Assembly (NCBI GenBank): GCA_000004985.1
Contig: GG738855.1
Strand: one strand, 5' to 3'
Source: Naegleria gruberi
Lineage: Eukaryota
DNA length: 64,000 bases
The notes under the pieces were generated by a model. The model was not told the origin of the DNA, made no database searches, and saw only the letters and a list, made by a program, of their open reading frames with translations. A program made the position numbers and the translations under genes. This document shows, piece by piece, positions 10,313-37,813 of the stretch (the stretch's first letter is position 1; each line of letters opens with the position of its first letter).

Positions 10313-12706
10313 TTAAGGAGCTAGTGCTTTAGCAGAAGTATTCACAATACCAGCAAACAAGTATTCCCCACCATCTTGTTCTTCCTTCATTAAATCCCTT
10401 AAGAAAAGAACAGTTTGCTTTTCAGTATTTTCAATTGATCTATCAATTTCAGCCTCTAATTGATTTCCTTCATATACTGCAGAGGTTTGTTTTCCTTCCA
10501 AAACCCAACTTTCAAATTGGAGAGCCTTAGCATGAGCAATTTCCTTTGTTGGAGCCAAAATACGATAGGCACGCTTGTATAAACTCTTTCTCTTATCTTC
10601 AGAAAGATTCTCGAAAACTTCAACCAAAATATCGTGAAGCAAGAAAGGTAAATCAAAGTTATAGTCTCGTCTGGCAACTTTTTCACAATAATCGAAAATC
10701 TTTTCCTTCTCTATTAATGATTTGGTAATTTCTTCCGTGGCAGTATCCTTATTCATTCTATGAATAATGTAGCTACCATGAATGGATCTGAGTTGAGCCC
10801 AAATCTTGAATTTGTTTTCAAAACAGTCTTCATTTCTTGAAAGAATAATTACAATATTTTCAAGGTATGATTCGAATTGTTCCTCTCTATTGAGTGCATG
10901 ATTTGAGTGTTCCCTCATTTGAGTAACAGCAAATCTCAACAAGTGGAGAGCTTCATTAATAATAACTTCCTTGAAGTTGAAGAAATGTACAGATAATTGA
11001 TTCCAAATTTGAGGGTGATTTTCCTTGATATTAGTTTCAAATGTCAATACATGAGTAATTGACATTAATAAATTATCCCAAACTTGAGCAAATTCGTCCC
11101 AACCAGAGTTTTCACTTTCTTCGCTCAAAAATCCCTTAATGAAAGAAAGTTGAAGTTTGCAAAGTTCAGAACATGCTTGAATTTCGACCTTATCCTTGAG
11201 AAGTTGAAGCATGGCAGATGATGGTTGATCACCAACACTTGGAATTTCATCAGAGAACATTCCAATGCTTTGACCAATACCTGTACCAATGTCAAGCAAT
11301 CTCTTGATTGTCTTTAATCTTGATGGAATATCTAGTGCATTATTTTGAGCTTCTTCACTTTCTTCTTCTTGTTCAGGTTGTTTCTCTCGTTGTTTAACAA
11401 GGAGCATCTTTCTTAAAAAGATTGACCATTCATAGGAAAGTACTACAGAATCTAATACAATTTGTTGACTGGTGAATTTAGGATGCAAAGACTTTTCAGC
11501 AGCAGGTAAGCTGTTCAATTGTCTAGCAGTAAGAAAAGTCAAATCTTCGTAACAAGAATCAGCTGATTTCCATTCATTTGCCATTGTGTACAAATATCCA
11601 AGTTTGAGCAATGATGTCTTGAGTTCGAACAAGTTTAGGCTATCAGATGCAAAGTTAATAGATGCAGGATTCTCTTTTGGAAGAAGCTTTTTAAGGTGAT
11701 CAGCTGAACTCTTAAAATCTTGCACTCTTTCGAATAGAATTGAAAGTCTCTTATCCAAATCTCTAATGTACTGTTCAGTAGATGCTATATGTTTGATAAC
11801 GTCTTGAGTTGAGGAAATGTTTTTAAGAATATTTAGAACCTCTTCCAATTTTTGGTATACAGCAATGAGAGTATTTACAGCATTTCTCAATTGTCCTTCA
11901 CGTTCATAAACAGCTGAGAGTTGGAAATATGTACCAAAAATGCTCATCACAAGATTTTCATTTCTTTTTTGCTCCAAGAAGGATTCTACAACAATTCTGG
12001 TTGCGAATGATGATGCATCATATTGGAAGAAGAGTAATTTTTGAAGAATAATCTTGCTCAATGATGTACATTGAAGAATATTGTAAATTCCGTTCATCTC
12101 GTTCAAATATTTGATAATTTCCTCTTTAGCTTTTTTAACAGTTTCAACATTTTCAGGAAGATGAGAAAGGTCTGTCTTTCTCTTTATCAATGATTGCAAC
12201 TTGCTTGTGGAAAAGCTCAATTTTGATAAATCTGCCAATTTACTATCATCCTTCTTTGACAATTCATGTTCCTTCAAGTATTGTGATGCTACTTGGAGTG
12301 CAATAAGTTGTGGATATATATCTTCGGCATCAGGTCTATCGGCCATATATTGTTTAGAAACATAAACAATACCGTCTATTGTTTTGGTGAGTGTCTCTGT
12401 GAGCGCTTTCTTATCATCTGTAGCATTCTTCCAGCTATAGAGTTGAATAATAAGAGTTTGTAAATGAGTTTGAGTCCACTTTGCTACAGTTTCATCATTT
12501 AAATCGGAAATATGATATTCATTTGCTTGACCAAGGTTTGTATCATAATGATAGGAATTAAAACAAGTGCCAGTTAAAGATGTTGTTGTTTTCAAACAAT
12601 TAATACTATTATGCTTAATTGATGATGATCTATTGTTGGTAACCAATAACGAAGATGAAGAAAGAGTCTTTGGCCTGAAAACCCTTTTCACGATGTGATT
12701 TTTCAT
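10313..12706 (-). CDS. Hypothetical all-alpha-helical protein (797 aa); family not recognised
   Basis: Long uninterrupted ORF with helical-repeat character. N-terminal S-rich segment. Track start is non-ATG; the real start is undetermined. Confidence 0.5.
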   Translation of the reverse strand: MKNHIVKRVFRPKTLSSSSLLVTNNRSSSIKHNSINCLKTTTSLTGTCFNSYHYDTNLGQANEYHISDLNDETVAKWTQTHLQTLIIQLYSWKNATDDKKALTETLTKTIDGIVYVSKQYMADRPDAEDIYPQLIALQVASQYLKEHELSKKDDSKLADLSKLSFSTSKLQSLIKRKTDLSHLPENVETVKKAKEEIIKYLNEMNGIYNILQCTSLSKIILQKLLFFQYDASSFATRIVVESFLEQKRNENLVMSIFGTYFQLSAVYEREGQLRNAVNTLIAVYQKLEEVLNILKNISSTQDVIKHIASTEQYIRDLDKRLSILFERVQDFKSSADHLKKLLPKENPASINFASDSLNLFELKTSLLKLGYLYTMANEWKSADSCYEDLTFLTARQLNSLPAAEKSLHPKFTSQQIVLDSVVLSYEWSIFLRKMLLVKQREKQPEQEEESEEAQNNALDIPSRLKTIKRLLDIGTGIGQSIGMFSDEIPSVGDQPSSAMLQLLKDKVEIQACSELCKLQLSFIKGFLSEESENSGWDEFAQVWDNLLMSITHVLTFETNIKENHPQIWNQLSVHFFNFKEVIINEALHLLRFAVTQMREHSNHALNREEQFESYLENIVIILSRNEDCFENKFKIWAQLRSIHGSYIIHRMNKDTATEEITKSLIEKEKIFDYCEKVARRDYNFDLPFLLHDILVEVFENLSEDKRKSLYKRAYRILAPTKEIAHAKALQFESWVLEGKQTSAVYEGNQLEAEIDRSIENTEKQTVLFLRDLMKEEQDGGEYLFAGIVNTSAKALAP

Positions 12707-17670: not shown

Positions 17671-19938
17671 ATGCTTCAAAAATCAACAAGAAGAATTTCA
17701 TCACTTTATGCTGGTTGTGGTCGTATTTCATCAACACCATCATCATCGGGAGTTGTACTCAACACTAATAGTTCAATCAAAATAATTAACCATCAATACA
17801 GATGTTATAATAATCATTTGGCAAAATTAAATCGTCTATCGGAATTATCAAATAATAACAAGAAACAATTTAAAAATCATCGTGATAGACAATATCAACC
17901 AATGGATAACATTGAAACACCAAAGGAAGTAAAGAATGATGTAACTACAGAATCCTATACTAAAATATTGAAAAAGTTCTTCTTAAAGGTTCACCCTGAC
18001 TTTTTCCAACAAGATCCACCAAAACAACAACAAAACAAGGAGTCCTTCTCAAAATTGAACGAACTTTTAAATTGGACTAACGAATATACCCAATTAACAC
18101 TTGATAATAAGAATTTGAATGAAGAGGAAATAGCTGACCTGGAAAAGAGATTGAATAGACTTGGTCCTATTCCAAGCGTTGATGAATCATTTGTTTTCTA
18201 TGTTAAGGAAACTGGAAGACAAAAATCTGAACCATTTAGAATTGAAGTTTTGTTTTCTTTACCAAAGAAGGTTCAATTCAATGGAAAATTAAAGAGTAGA
18301 TTGATTTTAACTCAACGTTTGGAAGAATTAGTAACTTCACTTTTGGAAAAATCAAAAATCATAACTGCTGAGGAAGCTAAAGCAAGAAGAGACATTGCTT
18401 TGGAACAATACAGAGAAATGGAAGAGTCCGTGGGTTCAAAGGGTAAGAAGACCTATAAATCACTGAAAGAAGAGTTACGTATGGCTCTCCAAAATAATTT
18501 ACAAGGAGCAGTCAACCTTGAAAAATTAAGAAGAGGTGAAGAAGATGATGAAGAATGGTGGTGGGATAAAGACTTGCCATCCATTGAACACTTGGTTACA
18601 CACGGCATGCTCTTCTTCTCTAAGAATATTACAGCAGAACAAACCATCAAAGCTATGAATCAATTGAAGAATGGTCTTGGTGAGATGAGATATTATGAAT
18701 GGAGTGATATTCCATTAATGATTACAGAAAAAACTGGCAAGTATGCTGTAAATGATCCTGTTGATGGGTTCATTTGCATTCCTTATGACTTTACTCCATT
18801 CGATTTTGTCAAGGAAATCATTACCAACGAAAAGAACATGACACTCCTCGTTGAAAAACGTGAATTGACAAGAAAAAAGGCCGAAGCTATTCAAAACATT
18901 AGAGAAAAACTTATTGAAGAAGTTGGTTTCTCTGATTTAACCATTTCACCAGAATTGACCTCAGAAGAACTCTATACATTTATTGAAAACTTTGAAAAGA
19001 GATACTTAAGTAATGACAAGATGAAATTGTTACTGAAAGACCTCTGTATCATCATTGATAACAAGTATTCAGCAAGTCCAGATGGATACATTTCAATTCA
19101 TTGGAACTTTATGCACAATGGAAAGGACAATATGTTCGAATTTTTGAAAGATTTAGGAGCTCAAAAAATCAAGAATATCAAAGATATGGGAAGAACTCTC
19201 AGCAATCTTAAGAGAGCATGTGTTTCACTCGGTGAAGAACTCATTGATAAACTTAAATGTAAAGAACTCAATTTGACAACCTATGCCGATTTGAACGAAT
19301 CCAATATGAAACGGTATCAAACTCTCCCAGTTACCCACGAATATATGAAACGATTGAGAGAATGTTGCCTCTTCTTGGAACGTTATGATTGGAGCACACA
19401 TACTTTCTATTTGGTCAATACTTTGGATTTACCTAAAGGTTTCAAACTTCCACTCAAACAAGTTCCTCATGTCAAGACAGAGGCCGATGTTAAGAGTTTA
19501 ATGAGAAGAATGACAATATATGGTGATACTATCATTGATATGGGCGCCAGAGCAGTCTATATTCCTGTAAACTTTACTGAAAATCAATTGTTCGAAACAG
19601 TCAACAAATATTGGAAGATGATTGAAAAACCTCAATTGCAATTGGATGGTGATGATTTTACAGATGTTGTAGATCCTCAAGGATTCCAACAATATAGAAA
19701 TTTGGCCTCTGAACTCGTCAAACAAGCTGAGTTTATGCTGACAAAGAAGAGAGCAGAAAGATATCAACAATTGGCTGAATTCCTCAACAGTCTTGAAGAT
19801 CAACAATTGTATGGTAAGGGTGCCAATAGTATTATGGAAGCAGCACTAGATAGACAAGAAGATGAAAGATATATCAATCTGTATCGTACTTGGTTCAGAA
19901 TTAGAGATATTCCATTAGATGTTTTTGAAACTCAATAA
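17671..19938 (+). CDS. Hypothetical protein with mitochondrial-presequence-like N-terminus and a J-domain-like HPD segment
   Basis: ATG at 17671, only 39 bp after the RhoGEF stop on the same strand. N-terminus MLQKSTRRISSLYAGCGRISS. Segment ..YTKILKKFFLKVHPDFFQQD..FSKLNELL has an HPD tripeptide in a J-like context. No confident family assignment. Confidence 0.5.
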   Translation: MLQKSTRRISSLYAGCGRISSTPSSSGVVLNTNSSIKIINHQYRCYNNHLAKLNRLSELSNNNKKQFKNHRDRQYQPMDNIETPKEVKNDVTTESYTKILKKFFLKVHPDFFQQDPPKQQQNKESFSKLNELLNWTNEYTQLTLDNKNLNEEEIADLEKRLNRLGPIPSVDESFVFYVKETGRQKSEPFRIEVLFSLPKKVQFNGKLKSRLILTQRLEELVTSLLEKSKIITAEEAKARRDIALEQYREMEESVGSKGKKTYKSLKEELRMALQNNLQGAVNLEKLRRGEEDDEEWWWDKDLPSIEHLVTHGMLFFSKNITAEQTIKAMNQLKNGLGEMRYYEWSDIPLMITEKTGKYAVNDPVDGFICIPYDFTPFDFVKEIITNEKNMTLLVEKRELTRKKAEAIQNIREKLIEEVGFSDLTISPELTSEELYTFIENFEKRYLSNDKMKLLLKDLCIIIDNKYSASPDGYISIHWNFMHNGKDNMFEFLKDLGAQKIKNIKDMGRTLSNLKRACVSLGEELIDKLKCKELNLTTYADLNESNMKRYQTLPVTHEYMKRLRECCLFLERYDWSTHTFYLVNTLDLPKGFKLPLKQVPHVKTEADVKSLMRRMTIYGDTIIDMGARAVYIPVNFTENQLFETVNKYWKMIEKPQLQLDGDDFTDVVDPQGFQQYRNLASELVKQAEFMLTKKRAERYQQLAEFLNSLEDQQLYGKGANSIMEAALDRQEDERYINLYRTWFRIRDIPLDVFETQ

Positions 19939-19944
19939 ATATAT

Positions 19945-22182
19945 TTATTTCACCAAGTCCAAATAGTTTCCAGAATTATTATCAATATACTTGACCGAAC
20001 AAGACAAACAAGGAAGCAAAATTAAGGGAAGAGGAAGCAAAAACAATGTGGCAAACCCAAAAGAGTACTGTTCTGGATAAGCAATGATAATGGCATGATG
20101 AACGAATAAACAAATCAGACTACACAGTACGGTAATGTACATGTTAATGTACAAACAACGTTTGGTTTTCGAATAGAGAGCTCTACACTCCAAGCAACAC
20201 CACAAAAAGGCAATAAATATCGTTCCAGCAAACAAGAGAAACTCTACTACAAATAGTGGAATCATAGCCACTGCCCAATCAATCTCTGACTCAATAGAAA
20301 ATTGATGAGTAATCATGATTGAACACAGCATACTATAACAAAATGCCACTATTAAAATGATAGAGTTGCAAGTAGAAGTGAGCTTGGAAATCACTGTTCT
20401 GAATTTGATACTTCTCACAATCAACCAAATAAAACAATAAATCAGCATGATTGTCGAAAGTCCACCAAAAACGGCAAACAAATACCATGGAGATTGACTG
20501 AATTGAGAATGAGGCAGACACAAGTACAAATTCCACACAAGTGCAAAAACAATTCCACAAATAGATAAGAGTAACAATCCAATACATGACATGACACTAT
20601 CAAAAAACATCTTCCTCAAACTCAAGATATTCCTCTGTTTTTCCCTTCTCTTACTGTTATTCCTGAGCGCAATTCCAAGTTTCCTCGCTGAAAGTCTCAA
20701 CTCTATTATGGACGATACGAGAATATTAATCATTCCACAATAGAGTGGAAAGAATACCACAATCCAACTCCACTCATTCTCATAATCAATACCAACATTC
20801 ATCAACACTCCCTTAATGGAGAATCCCAATATGAAACATGTGAAAAAGATGTAAACCAAGGGTGCAGAAAATACAAAGTGAATAGAAGATAGCCCCTCAA
20901 TGTCATCCAAAATGAGTTGCTCTGATAGTGGAATAGTTGTGAAACGATCTGATTTTTTCTTTTCAATCTTTCTAAATATGTCAATTCCAAATTGTTTGAC
21001 TTTCTTTTCAGTTTTCAAACATTCACAATAACAATCCTTCTCGAAAATAATATCATTCACTCCCTCAATTGTTACCGATTTGTACTTTTTAAACATAGAT
21101 GGAGGTATCTGAACAGTTGATTCCTCGCTATCACAATCTGATTCATTAATTAGTGTCAATATTTCCATTTCTTCCTCTTCAGAAACATATTCTTCTGAGG
21201 TAAGAGTTTCTGATAATTGATGATCAATCAGAGCAGTTTGGCTAGCACCACTATTATTCGAAAACTCATCCATTTCAATTGAAATTACCTCCTGATGGTT
21301 TCTCTCACCACGTGGAGATTCAATATCCTCAATAAATTCCATAATTTTTGGTGGTGAAAAACATGAATTTTCTATTTTACAAACTCCTCCCAAGTCCAAT
21401 AGAGAAGGTTTCGTATTCACCTTCTTTCCATTCGACATTAAATAATTTAAATGATATTGACCTAAATTTCCACCCTTCTTCCTATTGAAAAAGTAATTCT
21501 TAACTGCCAATATTCTTCTCTTTACAACTTTTTCCTGCACATAAATATCAAAATCCTTAAAGTATAATAATTTCAATTCTCGTATCTTGATTTGATATAA
21601 TCTATTCCAAAAACGTTGTTCTCTATCCAGAAAATTGTACCACATTGAACAAGTATGTGATAAATTGACCATTGTCAAAGAATCATCCAAAAACTCTGAA
21701 ATAATCATCAAAATATCATTTGCAATAATATTCTCAAAATTATGCCATTCAACAGGTTTCAATCGTTGATTATTATTACGATGACGATGATGATGATGAT
21801 TTGCACCATCCAATATAATTGTTCCTTCCTCCTCCGAATCATCATTTCTATTTTCCATTATTATTGTTGTGGTGGTGTTGTGATTGTTGTTGTTATATGA
21901 AGAACTGAGGGCGTGAAAAATTCTGGCAATTGGTGATTTGGTATTGGTTCGTTGTTGATTGTTTATAATGGGAGAAGGTGGCTGGTCAGTTTGGATTGTG
22001 ATATGTTCTTCATCAACATCATGTCTTTCCATCAATAATTGATTACGAGATTGACTAACATGAGTAGTGACAGGTATTGGTGAGTCATCTTCGGAGAGGA
22101 GAGATTCAGAGTTTGCAAAACCAATTTCCGAAGTTTGAATTTGATGGTTGGATTTATTGGTGGATGATCGTTTTCTAGTCAT
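19945..22182 (-). CDS. F-box-like domain protein with long low-complexity N-terminus and C-terminal multipass transmembrane domain (paralogue of 34997..37813)
   Basis: ATG at 22182 (MTRKRSSTNKSNHQIQT). Poly-His/Asn tract. F-box-like segment NDILMIISEFLDDSLTMVNLSHTCSMWYNFLDREQRFW. At least 8 predicted TM helices in the C-terminal 350 aa. Intronless. Confidence 0.55.
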   Translation of the reverse strand: MTRKRSSTNKSNHQIQTSEIGFANSESLLSEDDSPIPVTTHVSQSRNQLLMERHDVDEEHITIQTDQPPSPIINNQQRTNTKSPIARIFHALSSSYNNNNHNTTTTIIMENRNDDSEEEGTIILDGANHHHHRHRNNNQRLKPVEWHNFENIIANDILMIISEFLDDSLTMVNLSHTCSMWYNFLDREQRFWNRLYQIKIRELKLLYFKDFDIYVQEKVVKRRILAVKNYFFNRKKGGNLGQYHLNYLMSNGKKVNTKPSLLDLGGVCKIENSCFSPPKIMEFIEDIESPRGERNHQEVISIEMDEFSNNSGASQTALIDHQLSETLTSEEYVSEEEEMEILTLINESDCDSEESTVQIPPSMFKKYKSVTIEGVNDIIFEKDCYCECLKTEKKVKQFGIDIFRKIEKKKSDRFTTIPLSEQLILDDIEGLSSIHFVFSAPLVYIFFTCFILGFSIKGVLMNVGIDYENEWSWIVVFFPLYCGMINILVSSIIELRLSARKLGIALRNNSKRREKQRNILSLRKMFFDSVMSCIGLLLLSICGIVFALVWNLYLCLPHSQFSQSPWYLFAVFGGLSTIMLIYCFIWLIVRSIKFRTVISKLTSTCNSIILIVAFCYSMLCSIMITHQFSIESEIDWAVAMIPLFVVEFLLFAGTIFIAFLWCCLECRALYSKTKRCLYINMYITVLCSLICLFVHHAIIIAYPEQYSFGFATLFLLPLPLILLPCLSCSVKYIDNNSGNYLDLVK

Positions 22183-22289
22183 TTTTTTAATGTCGTTTCC
22201 ACCGAGATGACAAATGAAAACTTGTTTTAAAAGATGTTTGGTTGACCTCAGTTTTATGAACCAAATTATGAACTTCTTAACATCATAAC
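22134..22289. repeat. Copy A of a roughly 150-bp imperfect direct repeat (first codons plus 5' flank of the F-box/TM gene); partner at 23718..23840
   Basis: Shared blocks by eye: GAATTTGATG..TTTATTGG(T/C)GGA(T/A)GATCGTTTTCT(A/T)GTCATTT(T/C)TTTAAT(G/A)TCGTTTC..AAAAGATGTTTGG(T/C)TGA..CCAAAT(T/C)AT(G/A)AAC..CATCATAAC. About 80% identity with small indels. Confidence 0.6.
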
Positions 22290-22325: not shown

Positions 22326-23609
22326 TTGAATTTAAAAAAAATGCTCAAACGTTTCAACAAATTTCCTCTCAAAATGATCATCTTGCCCTCTGGATACACA
22401 CCTACGCTCCGACAATCACATTCCAATCAAAATGTTGAAAACAACTCCTCCTCCTACCTCAACAATCTTCAAAATATGATCAATGAGGCTTGTTATTCAG
22501 ATGTTGTTGGATCCTATCTCAAAACTGAATTGGTGGATGCCTACATGCAAAAGAATCCCTTCCCAAATAATCAATCAATAATGGAGGAGGGAGTCACACG
22601 TTTAGGATATCTTTTGAAATATTCCAATGACAATGTTAAGAGAAATAAGAATCTTGTTAGTTCTGCTTTGAATGATGAATATCAAAATGAGGTGTTTGAA
22701 TTTTCACATGAATCACTGCGATGTGACAAGTCATTTATTATTGAGAATGTCATTGGAAAGTGTCATGTAATATTACCTTACTTGTGTGATGAATTAAAAA
22801 GAGACAAGGAATTAATCTTGAAAATTATAGAAAGAAATTGTCGTGACTTGTACTATGCCCCTGATGAATTGAAAAGTGACAGGGATATTATTGCAATGGC
22901 AGGTAGAACGAATTTGATGGTCGCTTATGAAAATGGTTCCAAAGAAATACAGCAAGACAGAGAATTCTGGAAGGATTTAATGTCATCAAAATGTTGCAGT
23001 TTTGTTTTTGGAATCCCATTTCCCTTAAATAACGATTTGGAGATGATGAATATTGCTGTGGAGCGTAATTCATTTTTTGCAATTAGTTCAACTTCGAATG
23101 AATTAAGAAATGATCGAGAGCTCATATTAAAAGCAGTGAAATTGGATGGATGGGCTCTCAAGTGGGCATCTGTTGAATTGCAAGATGATTTTGAGATTGT
23201 TTTGGAAGCTGTTAAATGTACTGGGCTTGCTTTTGAGTATGCTTCTGAAAAATTGAGAAATAATGAGATTATTACAATGGAGGCAGTGAAAACATATCCA
23301 AATGCACTATATCATACTCCAACATTGTATGATAATTGGCAGATTGTCATGACAGCTGTCAAAGTGAATGGATGGGCTCTCAAGTGGGCGTCTGATAAAT
23401 TACAAGGAGATTTTGAAATTGCTTTGGAAGCTGTCAAATCAAATGGTGAAGCTCTCCAGTTTGCATCTAAGGAATTGAGAAGTAATAAGATGATTGTAAT
23501 GGAGGCAGTAAAACAGAATGAATTTTCCATCAGATTTGCTTCTGAAGAGCTTCAAAATGATAGTGAAGTTGTAGCTGCTTCTAGAAAATACAGAATATCT
23601 AAAATGTGA
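22326..23609 (+). CDS. DUF4116-type tandem-repeat protein (about 30-aa repeats D.E..L.AVK.NG.AL..AS.EL..D), intronless
   Basis: ATG at 22326. At least 8 tandem units, e.g. DRELILKAVKLDGWALKWASVELQDDFEIVLEAVKCTGLAFEYASEKLRNNEIITMEAVK / WQIVMTAVKVNGWALKWASDKLQGDFEIALEAVKSNGEALQFASKELRSNKMIVMEAVKQN. Near-identical DNA blocks lie within the gene (about 23140-23170 vs 23360-23395). Confidence 0.6.
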   Translation: MNLKKMLKRFNKFPLKMIILPSGYTPTLRQSHSNQNVENNSSSYLNNLQNMINEACYSDVVGSYLKTELVDAYMQKNPFPNNQSIMEEGVTRLGYLLKYSNDNVKRNKNLVSSALNDEYQNEVFEFSHESLRCDKSFIIENVIGKCHVILPYLCDELKRDKELILKIIERNCRDLYYAPDELKSDRDIIAMAGRTNLMVAYENGSKEIQQDREFWKDLMSSKCCSFVFGIPFPLNNDLEMMNIAVERNSFFAISSTSNELRNDRELILKAVKLDGWALKWASVELQDDFEIVLEAVKCTGLAFEYASEKLRNNEIITMEAVKTYPNALYHTPTLYDNWQIVMTAVKVNGWALKWASDKLQGDFEIALEAVKSNGEALQFASKELRSNKMIVMEAVKQNEFSIRFASEELQNDSEVVAASRKYRISKM

Positions 23610-23717: not shown

Positions 23718-23840
23718 TGAATTTGATGATTTATTGGCGGAAGATCGTTTTCTTGTCATTTCTTTAATATCGTTTCTGTGACAAGTGAAATCTTCAAAAG
23801 ATGTTTGGCTGATGGTTATTATTGGTTACCAAATCATAAC
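23718..23840. pseudogene. Copy B of the direct repeat: truncated duplicate of the 5' end and promoter of the F-box/TM gene (minus strand reads MTRKRSSANKSSNSLLITNNSLV*)
   Basis: The reverse strand at about 23760-23690 encodes MTRKRSSANKSS.., versus MTRKRSSTNKSN.. for the intact gene at 22182. It stops after 23 codons. Located in the 3'-3' spacer after the DUF4116 gene. Confidence 0.55.
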
Positions 23841-23899
23841 ATCCTTTAAAATAATTATTCCTCTTTGTGAACTATTCAATTAAACTAAAGTATTCAAAA

Positions 23900-34996: not shown

Positions 34997-37813
34997 TTGG
35001 TTTGCCACACAATGACCGAACATGATCATCATGAAGAAGAGAACAAACATGCTACTAGTTTACCGACAGGTTCCATAGAATTGGATGAAGTCATAACAAC
35101 AATTTCAACGACAAATAATCAATTGCAACAAACTTCTAATAACCATTCCGAAAATTCATCATCAAATCATTCTTCAACAACCTCTACAACAACTCGGAAT
35201 CACCCTAACCTTCCGGAAATAATAATTCCAAAGAATGAAGATATTATCGTAGCCATTTCCAAACATCATACCTCTCCAAATTCTCACCATATTCCCAATA
35301 ATAATACATCTACAGATATTGTCTTTGAGGATAATGGTGAATCCAATACTAGTTTTATGAATACAGAAGATGATATAATTTCAGATTCAACACAAGAGGA
35401 AAACCTCTATGATGATATTGTTCTATCAAATCCGACCCAACCAAACTCTGCGCGATCCAATAGTAACAATAGTACGGCAACAACAACAAGTAGTAACCAA
35501 CCCTCTCCTCTTCAACAATTAAACATTCAGCCCCATCATCAAATACAGGATGGTAGAGTTTCTCCCTCTGCAAATCCCTATCCGACAAGTTCTAATTCAT
35601 CAATTAAACAACAACATTCGGTAATCACGACTCCATCTCCTCCTTCGATTCCTTTTTCATCAGCTGCTACAAGACACCATGTAAATAATAATACACCAAC
35701 ATCATCACTACACAAACATACCACCACTACACCAACCGTAAATATATCAAGACATTATAGTGGCACCAGTAACAAATCTGATATTATCAGTATTGAATCA
35801 TCTTACTCTGAAACTTCGAGTTACAAAGCTAAAAGACATAGAGAAAGGAATATACAATACCAAACCAATACTGTATCTGAAAGGTCAAACAATTCTCATA
35901 GACAATCCAAATTACCTCCCTCTCTCATTTCTGATTTTACACCAAATAGAAACTCTCTAGTAAGGTTTCAAGAAGATAATATCATTGATAATAATTTACA
36001 TCATCAAATTTCCAAGAGACTCACATCCTCTCCAAGGGCTGAAGATGATCAAAGAATGATTGCAAGCAATTTCTTCACCAATGCCTCAGTGCCTAATCTT
36101 TTATCAATTGGAAGTAATATTTTCTTTTCTGGAAACAAGACCTCTACTGTCACAAGTAATAATGTAGACAAGTATAAGGATACTACAAATGTTCTAAGCT
36201 TACCAGATAATATTATGCTGCACATTTTCTCATTTGTTGGAATTCAATATGCAGAGGATAACAATTACAACATGCTCTGTAAGAGGTGGTATGTCTTGTT
36301 GTGCTTGGATTATTTGTGGAAGGAGAGATACTTTAATTTTTTCAATTCGAGATCAATTCAAGCAAATCCAATGCTTCTTTCATATTCTAAAGATTTTGAT
36401 TTTCCTCAAAGAAGCAAATTTAGATATAATTTAATCTTATTGAGAAAGAAGAAGCACCTCCTCAAGCAACGTCTTCTATCTCAAAACAGACACGAAAAAT
36501 CAAGAAGATACTTCCTATTCAACTCATTTGTATTGAATCCATTAGTTGCAATAATATGTTTCATGATTTCCACTGTAGTGTTTGGCCTACAAGAGGATGG
36601 TGTAATTCCAAAGAATGATAGAAATACTTTACTCTTTGTTTTTTTGCCTTTCTTCACATCATTCCTGTTTTCCATTGTTGGAAATGTTTCACTTGGTTTG
36701 AGAGAGACCATTTTCTGCAAGAATGGATTTTATGACATTTCTCACTTTATCCATTTTCTTGTTATTGTACTCGGACAGTACACATTCTATTTTTGCTCTT
36801 TACTGTTTGGTTTAAAGTGGTTTTGGTTTAAAACCTCTTTATGGACTTCCTTCTCCATTCCATGCCTTTGTATCTATATCATGTTTGTTGGATTTTGCTT
36901 TGCATATATTTTGCATAAGTATGTCAAAAGAAGAATTCAATTCCAAGATATGAGAAAGGATAGACCCAACCTGAGTGTAAATAGTCCTGAATACTTTTAT
37001 TTTGCTTATAGACTGAGATCTCATAAGAGAAGAGAATTCTACTCAAAAGCCAAATATATTGCACAACCATACGATGATGATTTTATAGAGTTGAGTGAAG
37101 ATGAAGATATGGGAAATGATACAGATGAGGATCTTGAGGATACTTTTGATGACTCTACTGCATTTGATGATGAAACTGAAACAACATCAAGAAAAACTGA
37201 TGAAATGGTTTCAACACCAAAGACCAGGGAAAGAAAGAAAGAGACAGCCAAGCTTTCTGTCTTTAAAGAGTTTGATAATCAAATGCATATTCAAGATATT
37301 ACTGACATATCCACACTTACCATTATTGTATTTATATTTCTCATACTATTTATGGTAGGATTGGAGATGATTCTGGTACCCCTCAAAATTGATGGGATTA
37401 TTGTATCTTCTTGGAGTTCTGTGTTTGTACCTCTATGGATAGTAATGTTCATTCTTTTATGTGGATTGCCGTCGTGGATAACATGGGAAATTTGCACCAA
37501 AACCAATTTAGACAAGAAAACAATAAGCACTTCAGTGGATGTCATTACTGAAGAATTTTCAAAGGCAACCACCAAAAATAAGAATGACCCAGAAAGATAC
37601 CAACGAGCATATTATTCGTTTGTTGCATGTCCATGGTGTTTTACCATTCCATTGTTTGTTGCTTTGGTTGTTCTTGCAGCCACTCTTGATGGAGCCAACA
37701 TTCCATATGTTGTTTCCTGTGCATTATTTGCATTTTGTGAGTTTGTAATTGGTGGCCTTTACTTGATGATTGTTATACCTTATACTCTAGCACACAACGT
37801 TTGGGATGTTTGA
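34997..37813 (+). CDS. F-box-like domain protein with low-complexity N-terminus and two clusters of transmembrane helices (paralogue of 19945..22182)
   Basis: Long S/T/N/H-rich N-terminus. F-box-like LSLPDNIMLHIFSFVGIQYAEDNNYNMLCKRWYVLLCLDYLWKERYF. About 6 TM helices follow, then an acidic D/E tract and about 5 more TM helices. Intronless. Domain order matches the gene at 19945..22182. Confidence 0.55.
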   Translation: MVCHTMTEHDHHEEENKHATSLPTGSIELDEVITTISTTNNQLQQTSNNHSENSSSNHSSTTSTTTRNHPNLPEIIIPKNEDIIVAISKHHTSPNSHHIPNNNTSTDIVFEDNGESNTSFMNTEDDIISDSTQEENLYDDIVLSNPTQPNSARSNSNNSTATTTSSNQPSPLQQLNIQPHHQIQDGRVSPSANPYPTSSNSSIKQQHSVITTPSPPSIPFSSAATRHHVNNNTPTSSLHKHTTTTPTVNISRHYSGTSNKSDIISIESSYSETSSYKAKRHRERNIQYQTNTVSERSNNSHRQSKLPPSLISDFTPNRNSLVRFQEDNIIDNNLHHQISKRLTSSPRAEDDQRMIASNFFTNASVPNLLSIGSNIFFSGNKTSTVTSNNVDKYKDTTNVLSLPDNIMLHIFSFVGIQYAEDNNYNMLCKRWYVLLCLDYLWKERYFNFFNSRSIQANPMLLSYSKDFDFPQRSKFRYNLILLRKKKHLLKQRLLSQNRHEKSRRYFLFNSFVLNPLVAIICFMISTVVFGLQEDGVIPKNDRNTLLFVFLPFFTSFLFSIVGNVSLGLRETIFCKNGFYDISHFIHFLVIVLGQYTFYFCSLLFGLKWFWFKTSLWTSFSIPCLCIYIMFVGFCFAYILHKYVKRRIQFQDMRKDRPNLSVNSPEYFYFAYRLRSHKRREFYSKAKYIAQPYDDDFIELSEDEDMGNDTDEDLEDTFDDSTAFDDETETTSRKTDEMVSTPKTRERKKETAKLSVFKEFDNQMHIQDITDISTLTIIVFIFLILFMVGLEMILVPLKIDGIIVSSWSSVFVPLWIVMFILLCGLPSWITWEICTKTNLDKKTISTSVDVITEEFSKATTKNKNDPERYQRAYYSFVACPWCFTIPLFVALVVLAATLDGANIPYVVSCALFAFCEFVIGGLYLMIVIPYTLAHNVWDV

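What the first reader, a model, noticed from the sequence alone, without database searches (positions are those of the whole stretch)
19945..22182. Paralogous F-box-like plus multipass-membrane proteins (second copy at 34997..37813)
Two intronless genes 13 kb apart on opposite strands encode the same unusual order. Each has a long N/H/S/T-rich disordered N-terminus, then an F-box-like helix-loop segment (..ILMIISEFLDDSLTMVNLSHTCSMWYNFL.. vs ..IMLHIFSFVGIQY..YNMLCKRWYVLL..), then 8-11 predicted TM helices. An F-box fused to an integral membrane domain would place an SCF-type substrate adaptor in a membrane, which is uncommon; a TMEM183-like family is a possible relative. The gene at 19945 is also the source of the duplicated 5' fragment at 23718.
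Basis: partly seen in the sequence, partly recalled or inferred. Interest (0 to 1): 0.6.

Follow-up and report, generated by a model that had tools for sequence, protein, structure and literature searches.

The report
Two membrane-embedded F-box proteins in Naegleria
Two Naegleria gruberi genes each join a cytosolic F-box, the handle that plugs a protein into an SCF ubiquitin ligase, to an eight-helix membrane domain, but they belong to two separate old families and are not close duplicates.

Summary
The window is Naegleria gruberi DNA. Both genes are real. Each has a disordered N-terminus, an F-box-like domain, and exactly 8 transmembrane helices.

**F-box.** It is supported by Pfam. B passes the curated cut-off, A falls just under it, and A's orthologues pass. 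A joint A+B profile hits only F-box proteins among solved structures, including FBXW7 and Skp2.

**Topology.** The positive-inside rule puts the F-box and both termini in the cytosol. Lys+Arg in/out is 21/0 for A and 23/5 for B.

**Membrane domains.** B's matches the TMEM185 family (PF10269), not TMEM183. A's is an orphan found only in Naegleria and Willaertia.

**"Paralogous" is not supported.**
- An exhaustive search with A does not retrieve B.
- The transmembrane profiles of the two families do not hit each other.
- Each family's F-box profile scores human Skp2 and FBXW7 about as well as the other family.
- Only a weak profile-profile signal remains (E 2.6e-4, probability 42%).

**Other points.**
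- The reference gene model for A (380 aa) is truncated by a spurious intron, which hides its membrane domain.
- The 130-nt copy of A's 5' end at 23718 is confirmed.

**Most likely function.** These are membrane-anchored SCF substrate receptors. Plant TMEM185-like RING E3 ligases are a parallel. Interest is moderate.

The parts
19945..22182 (-). Gene A: complete 745-aa ORF for a polytopic membrane F-box protein. The N. gruberi reference model P0001 covers only the first 366 residues plus a 14-residue out-of-frame tail.
   Evidence: ORF. P0001 has 380 aa. Its tail maps to 20698..20660 in another frame, after a predicted intron starting near 21085. The N. lovaniensis and W. magna orthologues, and an environmental relative, align along the whole ORF, including the stretch that the model splices out.
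21748..22182 (-). A residues 1-145: low-complexity N/S/T/H-rich N-terminal region, poorly conserved.
   Evidence: Composition. The alignment is gappy here.
21592..21735 (-). A residues 150-197: F-box-like domain (NIIANDILMIISEFLDDSLTMVNLSHTCSMWYNFLDREQRFW). In N. gruberi the canonical LP is I-A. The orthologues have IPND, LPRD or LPPD.
   Evidence: PF12937 gives 22.5 bits, E 9.7e-5, against a cut-off of 24.3. Orthologues reach 3.5e-8. The joint profile hits FBXW7 and Skp2. The AF2 model shows three short helices here at pLDDT 67-81. Codons checked.
21499..21591 (-). A residues 198-228: conserved helical extension after the F-box (IKIRELK..YFKDFDIYVQEKVVKRR).
   Evidence: K209, D210, F211, D212, V215, Q216, E217 are invariant across the A family. 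A K[DE]FD motif lies at a similar position in 2 of 3 B-family members.
20938..21057 (-). A residues 376-415: conserved juxtamembrane helices (IFEKDCY.E....E..V...G.DIF.K).
   Evidence: for conservation. AF2 pLDDT is about 76 for this block.
19984..20886 (-). A residues 433-733: eight TM helices (436-458, 471-493, 529-551, 566-588, 603-625, 637-659, 677-699, 708-730). Outer loops are short. Inner loops are Lys/Arg-rich.
   Evidence: Hydropathy. Loop charges 21 in / 0 out. The AF2 model shows eight long helices. Tmemb_185A scores only 14.2 bits, E 0.037. The family consensus gives no hit.
35012..37813 (+). Gene B: 933-aa F-box / TMEM185-like membrane protein, NAEGRDRAFT_78867.
   Evidence: 100% identical to P0002. 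Relatives are P0003 (67% identity) and W. magna P0004 (51%).
36194..36334 (+). B F-box-like domain (LPDNIMLHIFSFVGIQYAEDNNYNMLCKRWYVLLCLDYLW).
   Evidence: PF12937 scores 24.4 bits on the whole protein and 27.2 bits on the isolated segment, against a cut-off of 24.3. PF00646 gives E 0.0022. The B-family profile scores human Skp2 at 22.7 bits.
36518..36913 (+). B TM helices 1-4 (residues 503-525, 538-560, 579-601, 612-634 in 933-aa numbering).
   Evidence: Aligned in register with A's TM1-4 by hhalign, but weakly.
36914..37312 (+). B cytosolic loop of about 133 residues between TM4 and TM5, strongly acidic in the middle (SEDEDMGNDTDEDLEDTFDDSTAFDDETE).
   Evidence: Conserved in the B-family alignment.
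37313..37774 (+). B TM helices 5-8 (768-790, 800-822, 873-893, 899-921). This is the best TMEM185 match and includes LKIDGIIVSSWSSVFVPLW.
   Evidence: PF10269 scores 26.6 bits on the TM domain. With the loop deleted, the three family members score 34.2, 32.1 and 25.0 bits, against a cut-off of 23.1.
22136..22265 (.). Direct repeat, copy 1: the first ~45 nt of gene A's CDS plus ~85 nt of the divergent promoter region.
23718..23850 (.). Direct repeat, copy 2 (about 85% identical). On the minus strand it reads MTRKRSSANKSSNSLLITNNSLV*, a dead-end fragment.

Best explanation
Genes A and B encode two distinct polytopic membrane F-box proteins, each conserved within heterolobosean amoebae.

**Layout.** Each protein has a long disordered cytosolic N-terminus, then a cytosolic F-box, then eight membrane helices arranged as four hairpins. 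Both ends lie in the cytosol.

**Likely mechanism.**
- The F-box binds Skp1 and so recruits Cul1-Rbx1-E2. This places an SCF ubiquitin ligase on a membrane.
- The membrane domain sits where soluble F-box proteins carry their WD40 or LRR substrate-binding domain. It would therefore act as localiser and as receptor for membrane or membrane-proximal substrates.

**Membrane domains.** B's is TMEM185-like. A's is an orphan fold with only a hint of the same hairpin signature.

**Relationship.** The two genes are not recent paralogues, and their 13-kb proximity is incidental.

**Shown here:** the ORFs, their conservation, F-box identity, the 8 TM helices, inside/outside charge bias, and B's TMEM185 match.

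**Inferred, not tested:** Skp1 binding, SCF assembly, substrate recognition by the membrane domain, and which membrane is involved.
For: **Organism and conservation**
- The source is N. gruberi.
- A has relatives in N. lovaniensis, N. fowleri, W. magna and an environmental contig at 32-42% identity.
- B has relatives at 67% identity (an unnamed environmental ENA contig) and 51% (W. magna).

**F-box**
- PF12937 scores 27.2 bits for B and 22.5 bits for A, against a cut-off of 24.3.
- Three of five A-family members hit PF12937, best E 3.5e-8, and two hit PF00646.
- The joint profile gives 27 PDB hits at E <= 1, all of them F-box proteins. FBXW7 scores E 2.9e-4 and Skp2 E 5.6e-4.

**Topology**
- There are 8 hydrophobic segments in each protein.
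- Lys+Arg counts are 21 in / 0 out for A and 23 in / 5 out for B, with the N-terminus inside.
- AF2 shows eight long helices in A.

**B's TM domain**
- PF10269 scores 26.6, 34.2, 32.1 and 25.0 bits in different scans, all above the cut-off of 23.1.

**Parallel in plants**
[quoted passage not shown] This indicates that a TMEM185-like domain is joined to a ubiquitin-ligase module in another lineage (PMC6118397).

**A and B are separate families**
- In W. magna the two orthologues sit on contigs of different length, 273,527 and 295,897 bp.
- No A-like gene lies within 10 kb of W. magna B.
Against: - No interaction or localisation data exist.
- In N. gruberi, A's F-box falls just under the Pfam cut-off. 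The canonical Pro of the LP motif is Ala (IAND), which may weaken Skp1 binding.
- On the whole protein, B scores only 24.4 bits against 24.3 for the F-box, and 19.6 against 23.1 for PF10269.
- The AF2 models are weak: pLDDT 57.5 for A and 42.8 for B.
- Fold searches of the PDB gave only generic helical bundles.
- Some F-box proteins, such as yeast Rcy1 and the RAVE complex, work with Skp1 outside SCF. This point rests on established knowledge and was not tested here.
Confidence: 0.55

Rival explanations
1. The proteins are membrane-anchored F-box proteins that bind Skp1 but act outside a cullin ligase. Yeast Rcy1 (membrane recycling) and the Skp1-containing RAVE complex work this way. They would then regulate trafficking or the assembly of a membrane complex, not ubiquitination.
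For: The F-box and the membrane location are both supported. Nothing here distinguishes SCF from non-SCF use of Skp1. That non-SCF F-box proteins tend to be membrane-associated is established knowledge, not tested here.
Against: Most characterised F-box proteins are SCF receptors. The plant TMEM185-like proteins carry a RING domain, a bona fide E3 module, which points to ubiquitination as the shared theme.
Confidence: 0.2
2. The F-box-like segments are degenerate remnants that no longer bind Skp1. The proteins would act through their membrane domains alone, for example as a transporter or scaffold like the uncharacterised TMEM185 family.
For: A scores below the Pfam cut-off and has lost the LP proline in N. 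gruberi. B is only marginally above the cut-off on the whole protein.
Against: The F-box columns are among the best conserved in both families. D156, L158, I161, L165, C178, W181 and L185 are invariant in A. P, D, L, I, F, S, F, C, K, R, W and Y are invariant in B. The orthologues of A keep [IL]P and pass Pfam at 3.5e-8.
Confidence: 0.15
3. This is the first reader's view: A and B are paralogues from one ancestral F-box-plus-membrane gene, both TMEM185-like, that have diverged beyond easy recognition.
For: - hhalign of the two families gives E 2.6e-4 at probability 42%, with TM1-4 aligned in register.
- The F-box-plus-linker region gives E 5e-4, and 0 of 100 shuffles reach that score.
- Both have 8 TM helices in four hairpins, with a hydrophobic-F-x-P-[LF]-[YFW] motif at the start of TM2 and TM6 (the motif was chosen after seeing the sequences).
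- The best Pfam membrane hit for A itself and for its N. lovaniensis orthologue is also Tmemb_185A, at E 0.037.
- A K[DE]FD motif follows the F-box in both.
Against: - Exhaustive phmmer with A does not find B.
- The TM profiles do not cross-hit.
- The TM hhalign scores are reached by 2-3% of locally shuffled controls.
- The A-family consensus does not hit PF10269.
- The F-box profiles score human Skp2 and FBXW7 as high as, or higher than, the other family.
- The two genes are not linked in W. magna.
Confidence: 0.25
4. The annotated 380-aa model of gene A is correct. Gene A would then be a soluble F-box protein, and the downstream membrane ORF would be untranslated or a separate gene.
For: This is the NCBI/JGI model P0001.
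Against: - The 745-codon frame is open end to end in DNA of 34% GC.
- The stretch removed by the predicted intron encodes residues conserved in four relatives.
- The model's 14-residue tail is out of frame and has no counterpart in the orthologues.
- The N. lovaniensis (788 aa) and W. magna (646 aa) models include the membrane domain.
Confidence: 0.03

Closest known systems
F-box proteins (Pfam F-box-like PF12937 / F-box PF00646), the SCF substrate receptors such as Skp2, FBXW7, Cdc4 and TIR1
   Same: A three-helix motif of about 45 residues with the [LI]P.[DE].L..I...L, C..W and LW pattern. A second domain lies C-terminal to it. The joint profile hits only these proteins in the PDB.
   Different: The C-terminal module is an 8-TM membrane domain, where these proteins carry WD40, LRR or another soluble domain. 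A's N. gruberi copy lacks the Pro of the LP motif.
TMEM185 / Transmembrane Fragile-X-F protein family (Pfam PF10269; human TMEM185A/B)
   Same: B's membrane domain scores above the curated cut-off in all three family members. It shows the repeated short-loop hairpins with ..DG.I...W..VF.P.W.
   Different: By my recollection, which was not tested here, animal TMEM185 proteins have no F-box. B also carries a 133-residue acidic loop between TM4 and TM5. A's domain does not reach the cut-off. The function of TMEM185 itself is unknown.
[quoted passage not shown]
   Same: By its family name, a TMEM185-like polytopic domain is joined to a ubiquitin-ligase module in one polypeptide. This implies the same logic of a membrane-embedded E3 or E3 adaptor.
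   Different: The ligase module is a RING finger, which recruits the E2 directly. The F-box here works through Skp1 and cullin. No RING hit was found in A or B at E <= 10. The domain content of the plant proteins was not examined here. The paper's table gives only the family name and gene count.
TMEM183
   Same: It appears in ubiquitin-related gene lists. I recall it being annotated as F-box-like plus TM, but that was not verified here.
   Different: No sequence link was found. No profile for it was available, and the only membrane-family hit for A or B is PF10269.
Membrane-associated F-box proteins such as yeast Rcy1, Mdm30/Mfb1 and prenylated FBXL2 (from established knowledge, not tested here)
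   Same: An F-box protein acting at a membrane.
   Different: Those are peripheral or lipid-anchored. A and B are integral proteins with eight helices.

Membership tests
F-box (PF12937 / PF00646) | Match to the F-box HMM at or above the curated cut-off | tested here: met
   B scores 24.4 bits on the whole protein and 27.2 bits on the isolated segment, against a cut-off of 24.3. A scores 22.5 bits, just under. Three of five A-family members match, best E 3.5e-8. The joint profile hits only F-box chains in the PDB.
F-box (PF12937 / PF00646) | LP dipeptide and conserved hydrophobic/Trp positions that contact Skp1 | tested here: inconclusive
   B has LPDN...CKRWY...LW. A's orthologues have IPND, LPRD or LPPD. 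N. gruberi A reads IAND, with Pro replaced by Ala (codon GCA), while the remaining positions are kept.
F-box (PF12937 / PF00646) | Physical binding to Skp1 and assembly with Cul1 | not testable with these tools
   Only monomer prediction is available, and there are no interaction data.
TMEM185 (PF10269), gene B | Match to PF10269 at or above the cut-off of 23.1 bits | tested here: met
   B scores 19.6 bits on the whole protein and 26.6 bits on the TM domain alone. With the loop deleted, B, P0003 and P0004 score 34.2, 32.1 and 25.0 bits. The matches come as 2-3 stretches in shifting register, as expected for an internally repeated family.
TMEM185 (PF10269), gene A | Match to PF10269 at or above the cut-off of 23.1 bits | tested here: not met
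   A and P0005 each score 14.2 bits, E 0.037. P0006 and P0008 give no hit. The A-family consensus gives no hit.
One paralogous family containing both A and B | Reciprocal detection by sequence or profile search, closer to each other than to outsiders | tested here: not met
   phmmer with A over 1.84 billion representatives returns 5 proteins and not B. hmmsearch with the TM profiles gives no cross-hit. The F-box profiles score Skp2 and FBXW7 as high as or higher than the other family. hhalign gives only E 2.6e-4 at probability 42%. The TM scores are reached by 2-3 of 100 shuffles.
TMEM183 | Sequence match to a TMEM183 profile | not testable with these tools
   No TMEM183 model or sequence was available. 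Pfam scans at E <= 10 list nothing of that name.
Plant TMEM185-like RING E3 ligases (FHC14) | RING-HC zinc finger | tested here: not met
   Neither protein gives a RING or zinc-finger hit at E <= 10. The resemblance is functional and architectural only.

The most novel reading that the evidence does not exclude
Heterolobosean amoebae carry at least two independently built families of F-box proteins whose substrate-receptor position is filled by an eight-helix membrane domain. SCF ligases would then read substrates inside the bilayer. The TMEM185 fold would be a conserved membrane module for ubiquitin ligases, joined to an F-box in Naegleria and Willaertia and to a RING in plants. That would give a first testable function for the uncharacterised human TMEM185A/B proteins, as membrane partners or adaptors of E3 ligases.
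Probability: 0.25. Interest if true: 0.6.

Novelty: new variant of a known kind. Interest (0 to 1): 0.4.

Why it matters
Membrane-protein ubiquitination is usually assigned to polytopic RING ligases such as Hrd1, Doa10 and the MARCH family. SCF receptors are almost always soluble. An F-box placed directly in front of an 8-TM domain would put cullin-RING chemistry on a membrane through a different route.

The independent pairing of a TMEM185-like domain with an F-box here and with a RING in plants is a clue to the unknown role of the TMEM185 family. That family is conserved from plants to humans.

On the practical side, the N. gruberi reference model for gene A is wrong and hides this architecture. 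The N. fowleri A model and the W. magna B model also look defective.

Tried and rejected
- **Third word-indexed search.** I queried with a loop-deleted B-family TM alignment (A4).
- **AlphaFold database fold search.** It was not available. The direct structural test against TMEM185 models could not be run.
- **AF2 model of B.** Mean pLDDT was 42.8, too poor to search with.
- **Whole-length A-family profile against PDB sequences.** No hits.
- **Metagenome scan for B relatives.** Nothing confirmed.
- **A-family TM consensus against Pfam.** No PF10269 hit, so I dropped the idea that A is demonstrably TMEM185-like.
- **Synteny.** No neighbour of A or B is conserved around W. magna B, so I rejected a conserved gene pair.
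- **Literature searches.** Searches for TMEM185 plus F-box, TMEM183 plus F-box, Naegleria plus F-box plus transmembrane, and Naegleria plus Skp1 found nothing on such proteins.
Full report
**Source and genes**

The window is Naegleria gruberi nuclear DNA.
- The C-terminal 549 residues of gene B are 100% identical to NAEGRDRAFT_78867, which lies on a 613,270-bp scaffold.
- The first part of gene A matches an N. gruberi "predicted protein".
- GC content is about 34% and large uninterrupted ORFs are densely packed.

Gene A is a 745-codon ORF at 19945..22182 on the minus strand.

Gene B is listed from a TTG at 34997. Its real start is the ATG at 35012, giving 933 aa and ending at 37813.

**Gene model of A**

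The database model P0001 has 380 aa. It follows the ORF to ...PPSMFKK and then adds VETFSEETWNCAQE. That tail lies at 20698..20660 in another frame, so the model removes about 385 nt as an intron.

The removed stretch and everything downstream align with conserved residues in four relatives: N. lovaniensis (788 aa), W. magna (646 aa), an environmental protein (709 aa), and partly N. fowleri.

The long ORF is therefore the gene. The reference annotation hides its membrane domain.

**F-box**

| Scan | Score |
|---|---|
| B, whole protein, PF12937 | 24.4 bits (cut-off 24.3) |
| A, whole protein | no hit |
| B, isolated segment, PF12937 | 27.2 bits |
| B, isolated segment, PF00646 | E 0.0022 |
| A, isolated segment, PF12937 | 22.5 bits, E 9.7e-5 |
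| A family, 3 of 5 members, PF12937 | best E 3.5e-8 |
| A family, 2 of 5 members, PF00646 | best E 1.2e-4 |

The whole-protein scores are held down by the low-complexity N-termini.

A profile built from the F-box region of all eight sequences was searched against all PDB sequences. It returned 27 chains at E <= 1, every one an F-box protein. The hits included FBXW7 (2.9e-4), Skp2 (5.6e-4), FBH1, TIR1, FBXL17, beta-TrCP and Cdc4.

The AF2 model of A has three short helices here at pLDDT 67-81.

One caveat applies. N. gruberi A reads I-A-N-D where its orthologues read [IL]-P-x-D.

**Membrane domains and topology**

Hydropathy gives eight segments in each protein. The A model shows eight long helices.

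With the N-terminus inside, Lys+Arg counts in the loops are 21 inside / 0 outside for A and 23 / 5 for B. This places the F-box, the long acidic TM4-TM5 loop of B, and both C-termini in the cytosol. The four short loops of 5-14 residues face the other side.

B's membrane domain matches Tmemb_185A (PF10269):
- 26.6 bits for the domain alone.
- 34.2, 32.1 and 25.0 bits for the loop-deleted domains of the three family members, against a cut-off of 23.1.

A's domain gives only 14.2 bits, E 0.037, in two of five members. The family consensus gives nothing.

I therefore file B as TMEM185-like and A as an orphan 8-TM domain. No TMEM183 link was found.

**Are A and B paralogues?**

| Test | Result |
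|---|---|
| BLASTP, A vs B | E 0.002, 19% identity, within TM segments |
| Exhaustive phmmer with A (residues 140-745), 1.84 billion representatives | 5 proteins, all A orthologues |
| HMMER TM profiles of each family, all heuristic filters off, 247 ORF segments of the window | other gene not reported |
| hhalign, the two families | E 2.6e-4, probability 42%, TM1-4 in register |
| hhalign by sub-region | F-box plus linker E 5e-4; TM1-4 E 0.005 |
| Block-wise column shuffles | F-box score exceeds all 100; TM scores reached by 2-3 of 100 |

The F-box comparison does not point to a specific relationship:
- The A profile scores B members at 5.7-10.6 bits, against 13.4 for human FBXW7 and 9.2 for Skp2.
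- The B profile scores Skp2 at 22.7 bits, against 4.6-13.5 for A members.

Some shared features remain:
- the 8-TM, four-hairpin plan;
- a VF.P[LF][YFW]-type motif at the start of TM2 and TM6 in both (the motif was chosen after seeing the sequences);
- a K[DE]FD motif after the F-box.

These keep an ancient common origin possible, at about 0.25. They do not establish it.

In W. magna the two orthologues lie on different contigs. Nothing A-like lies within 10 kb of B, and no neighbour is conserved.

**Mechanism**

In SCF receptors the F-box binds Skp1 and the domain C-terminal to it binds substrate. This is established knowledge of the family.

Here the cytosolic F-box is followed by a polytopic domain. 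The most economical reading is a membrane-resident SCF receptor whose membrane domain localises the ligase, recognises membrane substrates, or does both.

Plants offer an independent parallel. [quoted passage not shown] By that name, a TMEM185-like domain is fused to a RING E3 module (PMC6118397).

Skp1 binding, cullin recruitment, substrate identity and the target membrane are all inferred.

The main rivals are:
- Skp1-dependent but cullin-independent roles, as for yeast Rcy1 and RAVE;
- a decayed F-box.

The second is disfavoured because the F-box columns are among the best conserved in both families.

**Duplicated fragment**

Positions 22136-22265 cover A's first ~45 nt of CDS plus ~85 nt upstream. 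They recur at 23718-23850 at about 85% identity and in the same orientation.

The second copy reads MTRKRSSANKSSNSLLITNNSLV* and stops.

The two copies bracket the DUF4116-repeat gene at 22326..23609. The direction of copying cannot be determined.

**Verdict**

The architecture is real and uncommon. The paralogy claim and the TMEM183 suggestion are not supported.

UniProt already labels B and A's Naegleria orthologues "F-box domain-containing protein". Three points are new here:
- the corrected gene A;
- the cytosolic F-box plus 8-TM topology in two separate families;
- the TMEM185 identity of B's membrane domain, with its plant RING parallel.

I rate this a new variant of a known kind, of moderate interest.

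Noticed in passing
window 22136-22265 and 23718-23850, flanking 22326..23609: Two direct repeats of about 130 nt, about 85% identical, bracket a complete gene on the plus strand. That gene encodes six DUF4116 repeats (PF13475, E 1.2e-77). The repeats carry gene A's start and promoter region. This looks like the scar of a local duplication or insertion event.
   Followed up: partly
window 20657-21085 (gene A) vs database model P0001: The N. gruberi reference model of gene A is truncated to 380 aa by a predicted intron of about 385 nt that shifts the frame. The orthologues show that the region is coding.
   Followed up: yes
P0007 (N. fowleri FDP41_002513), alignment A3 columns ~630-780: The N. 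fowleri orthologue model of A lacks the block that contains TM1-TM4. This is probably another gene-model error, not a real deletion.
   Followed up: no
L001 10925-12640 (Willaertia magna, JBEGDK010000115.1): tblastn aligns N. gruberi B residues 368-933 to this stretch of W. magna DNA in a single piece that runs 20 nt past the annotated gene end at 12620. The annotated W. magna protein P0004 ends in a different short tail (..PYSQFLIF). Its last exon therefore seems mis-called.
   Followed up: partly
window 19938-19945: Gene A and the convergent upstream gene 17671..19938 end only 6 nt apart. The upstream gene carries DUF4460 and DUF4461. This leaves almost no 3' intergenic space.
   Followed up: no
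window 36914-37312 (B residues 635-767): The cytosolic loop between TM4 and TM5 of B has a conserved and very acidic core, SEDEDMGNDTDEDLEDTFDDSTAFDDETE. D, S and T positions are invariant in all three family members. It could be a phospho-regulated or partner-binding segment.
   Followed up: no
tool behaviour: A profile query built from three B-family sequences returned no hit at E <= 0.01 in the word-indexed protein search, although those same proteins are in the database. A null result from that tool with alignment queries should not be read as absence.
   Followed up: no
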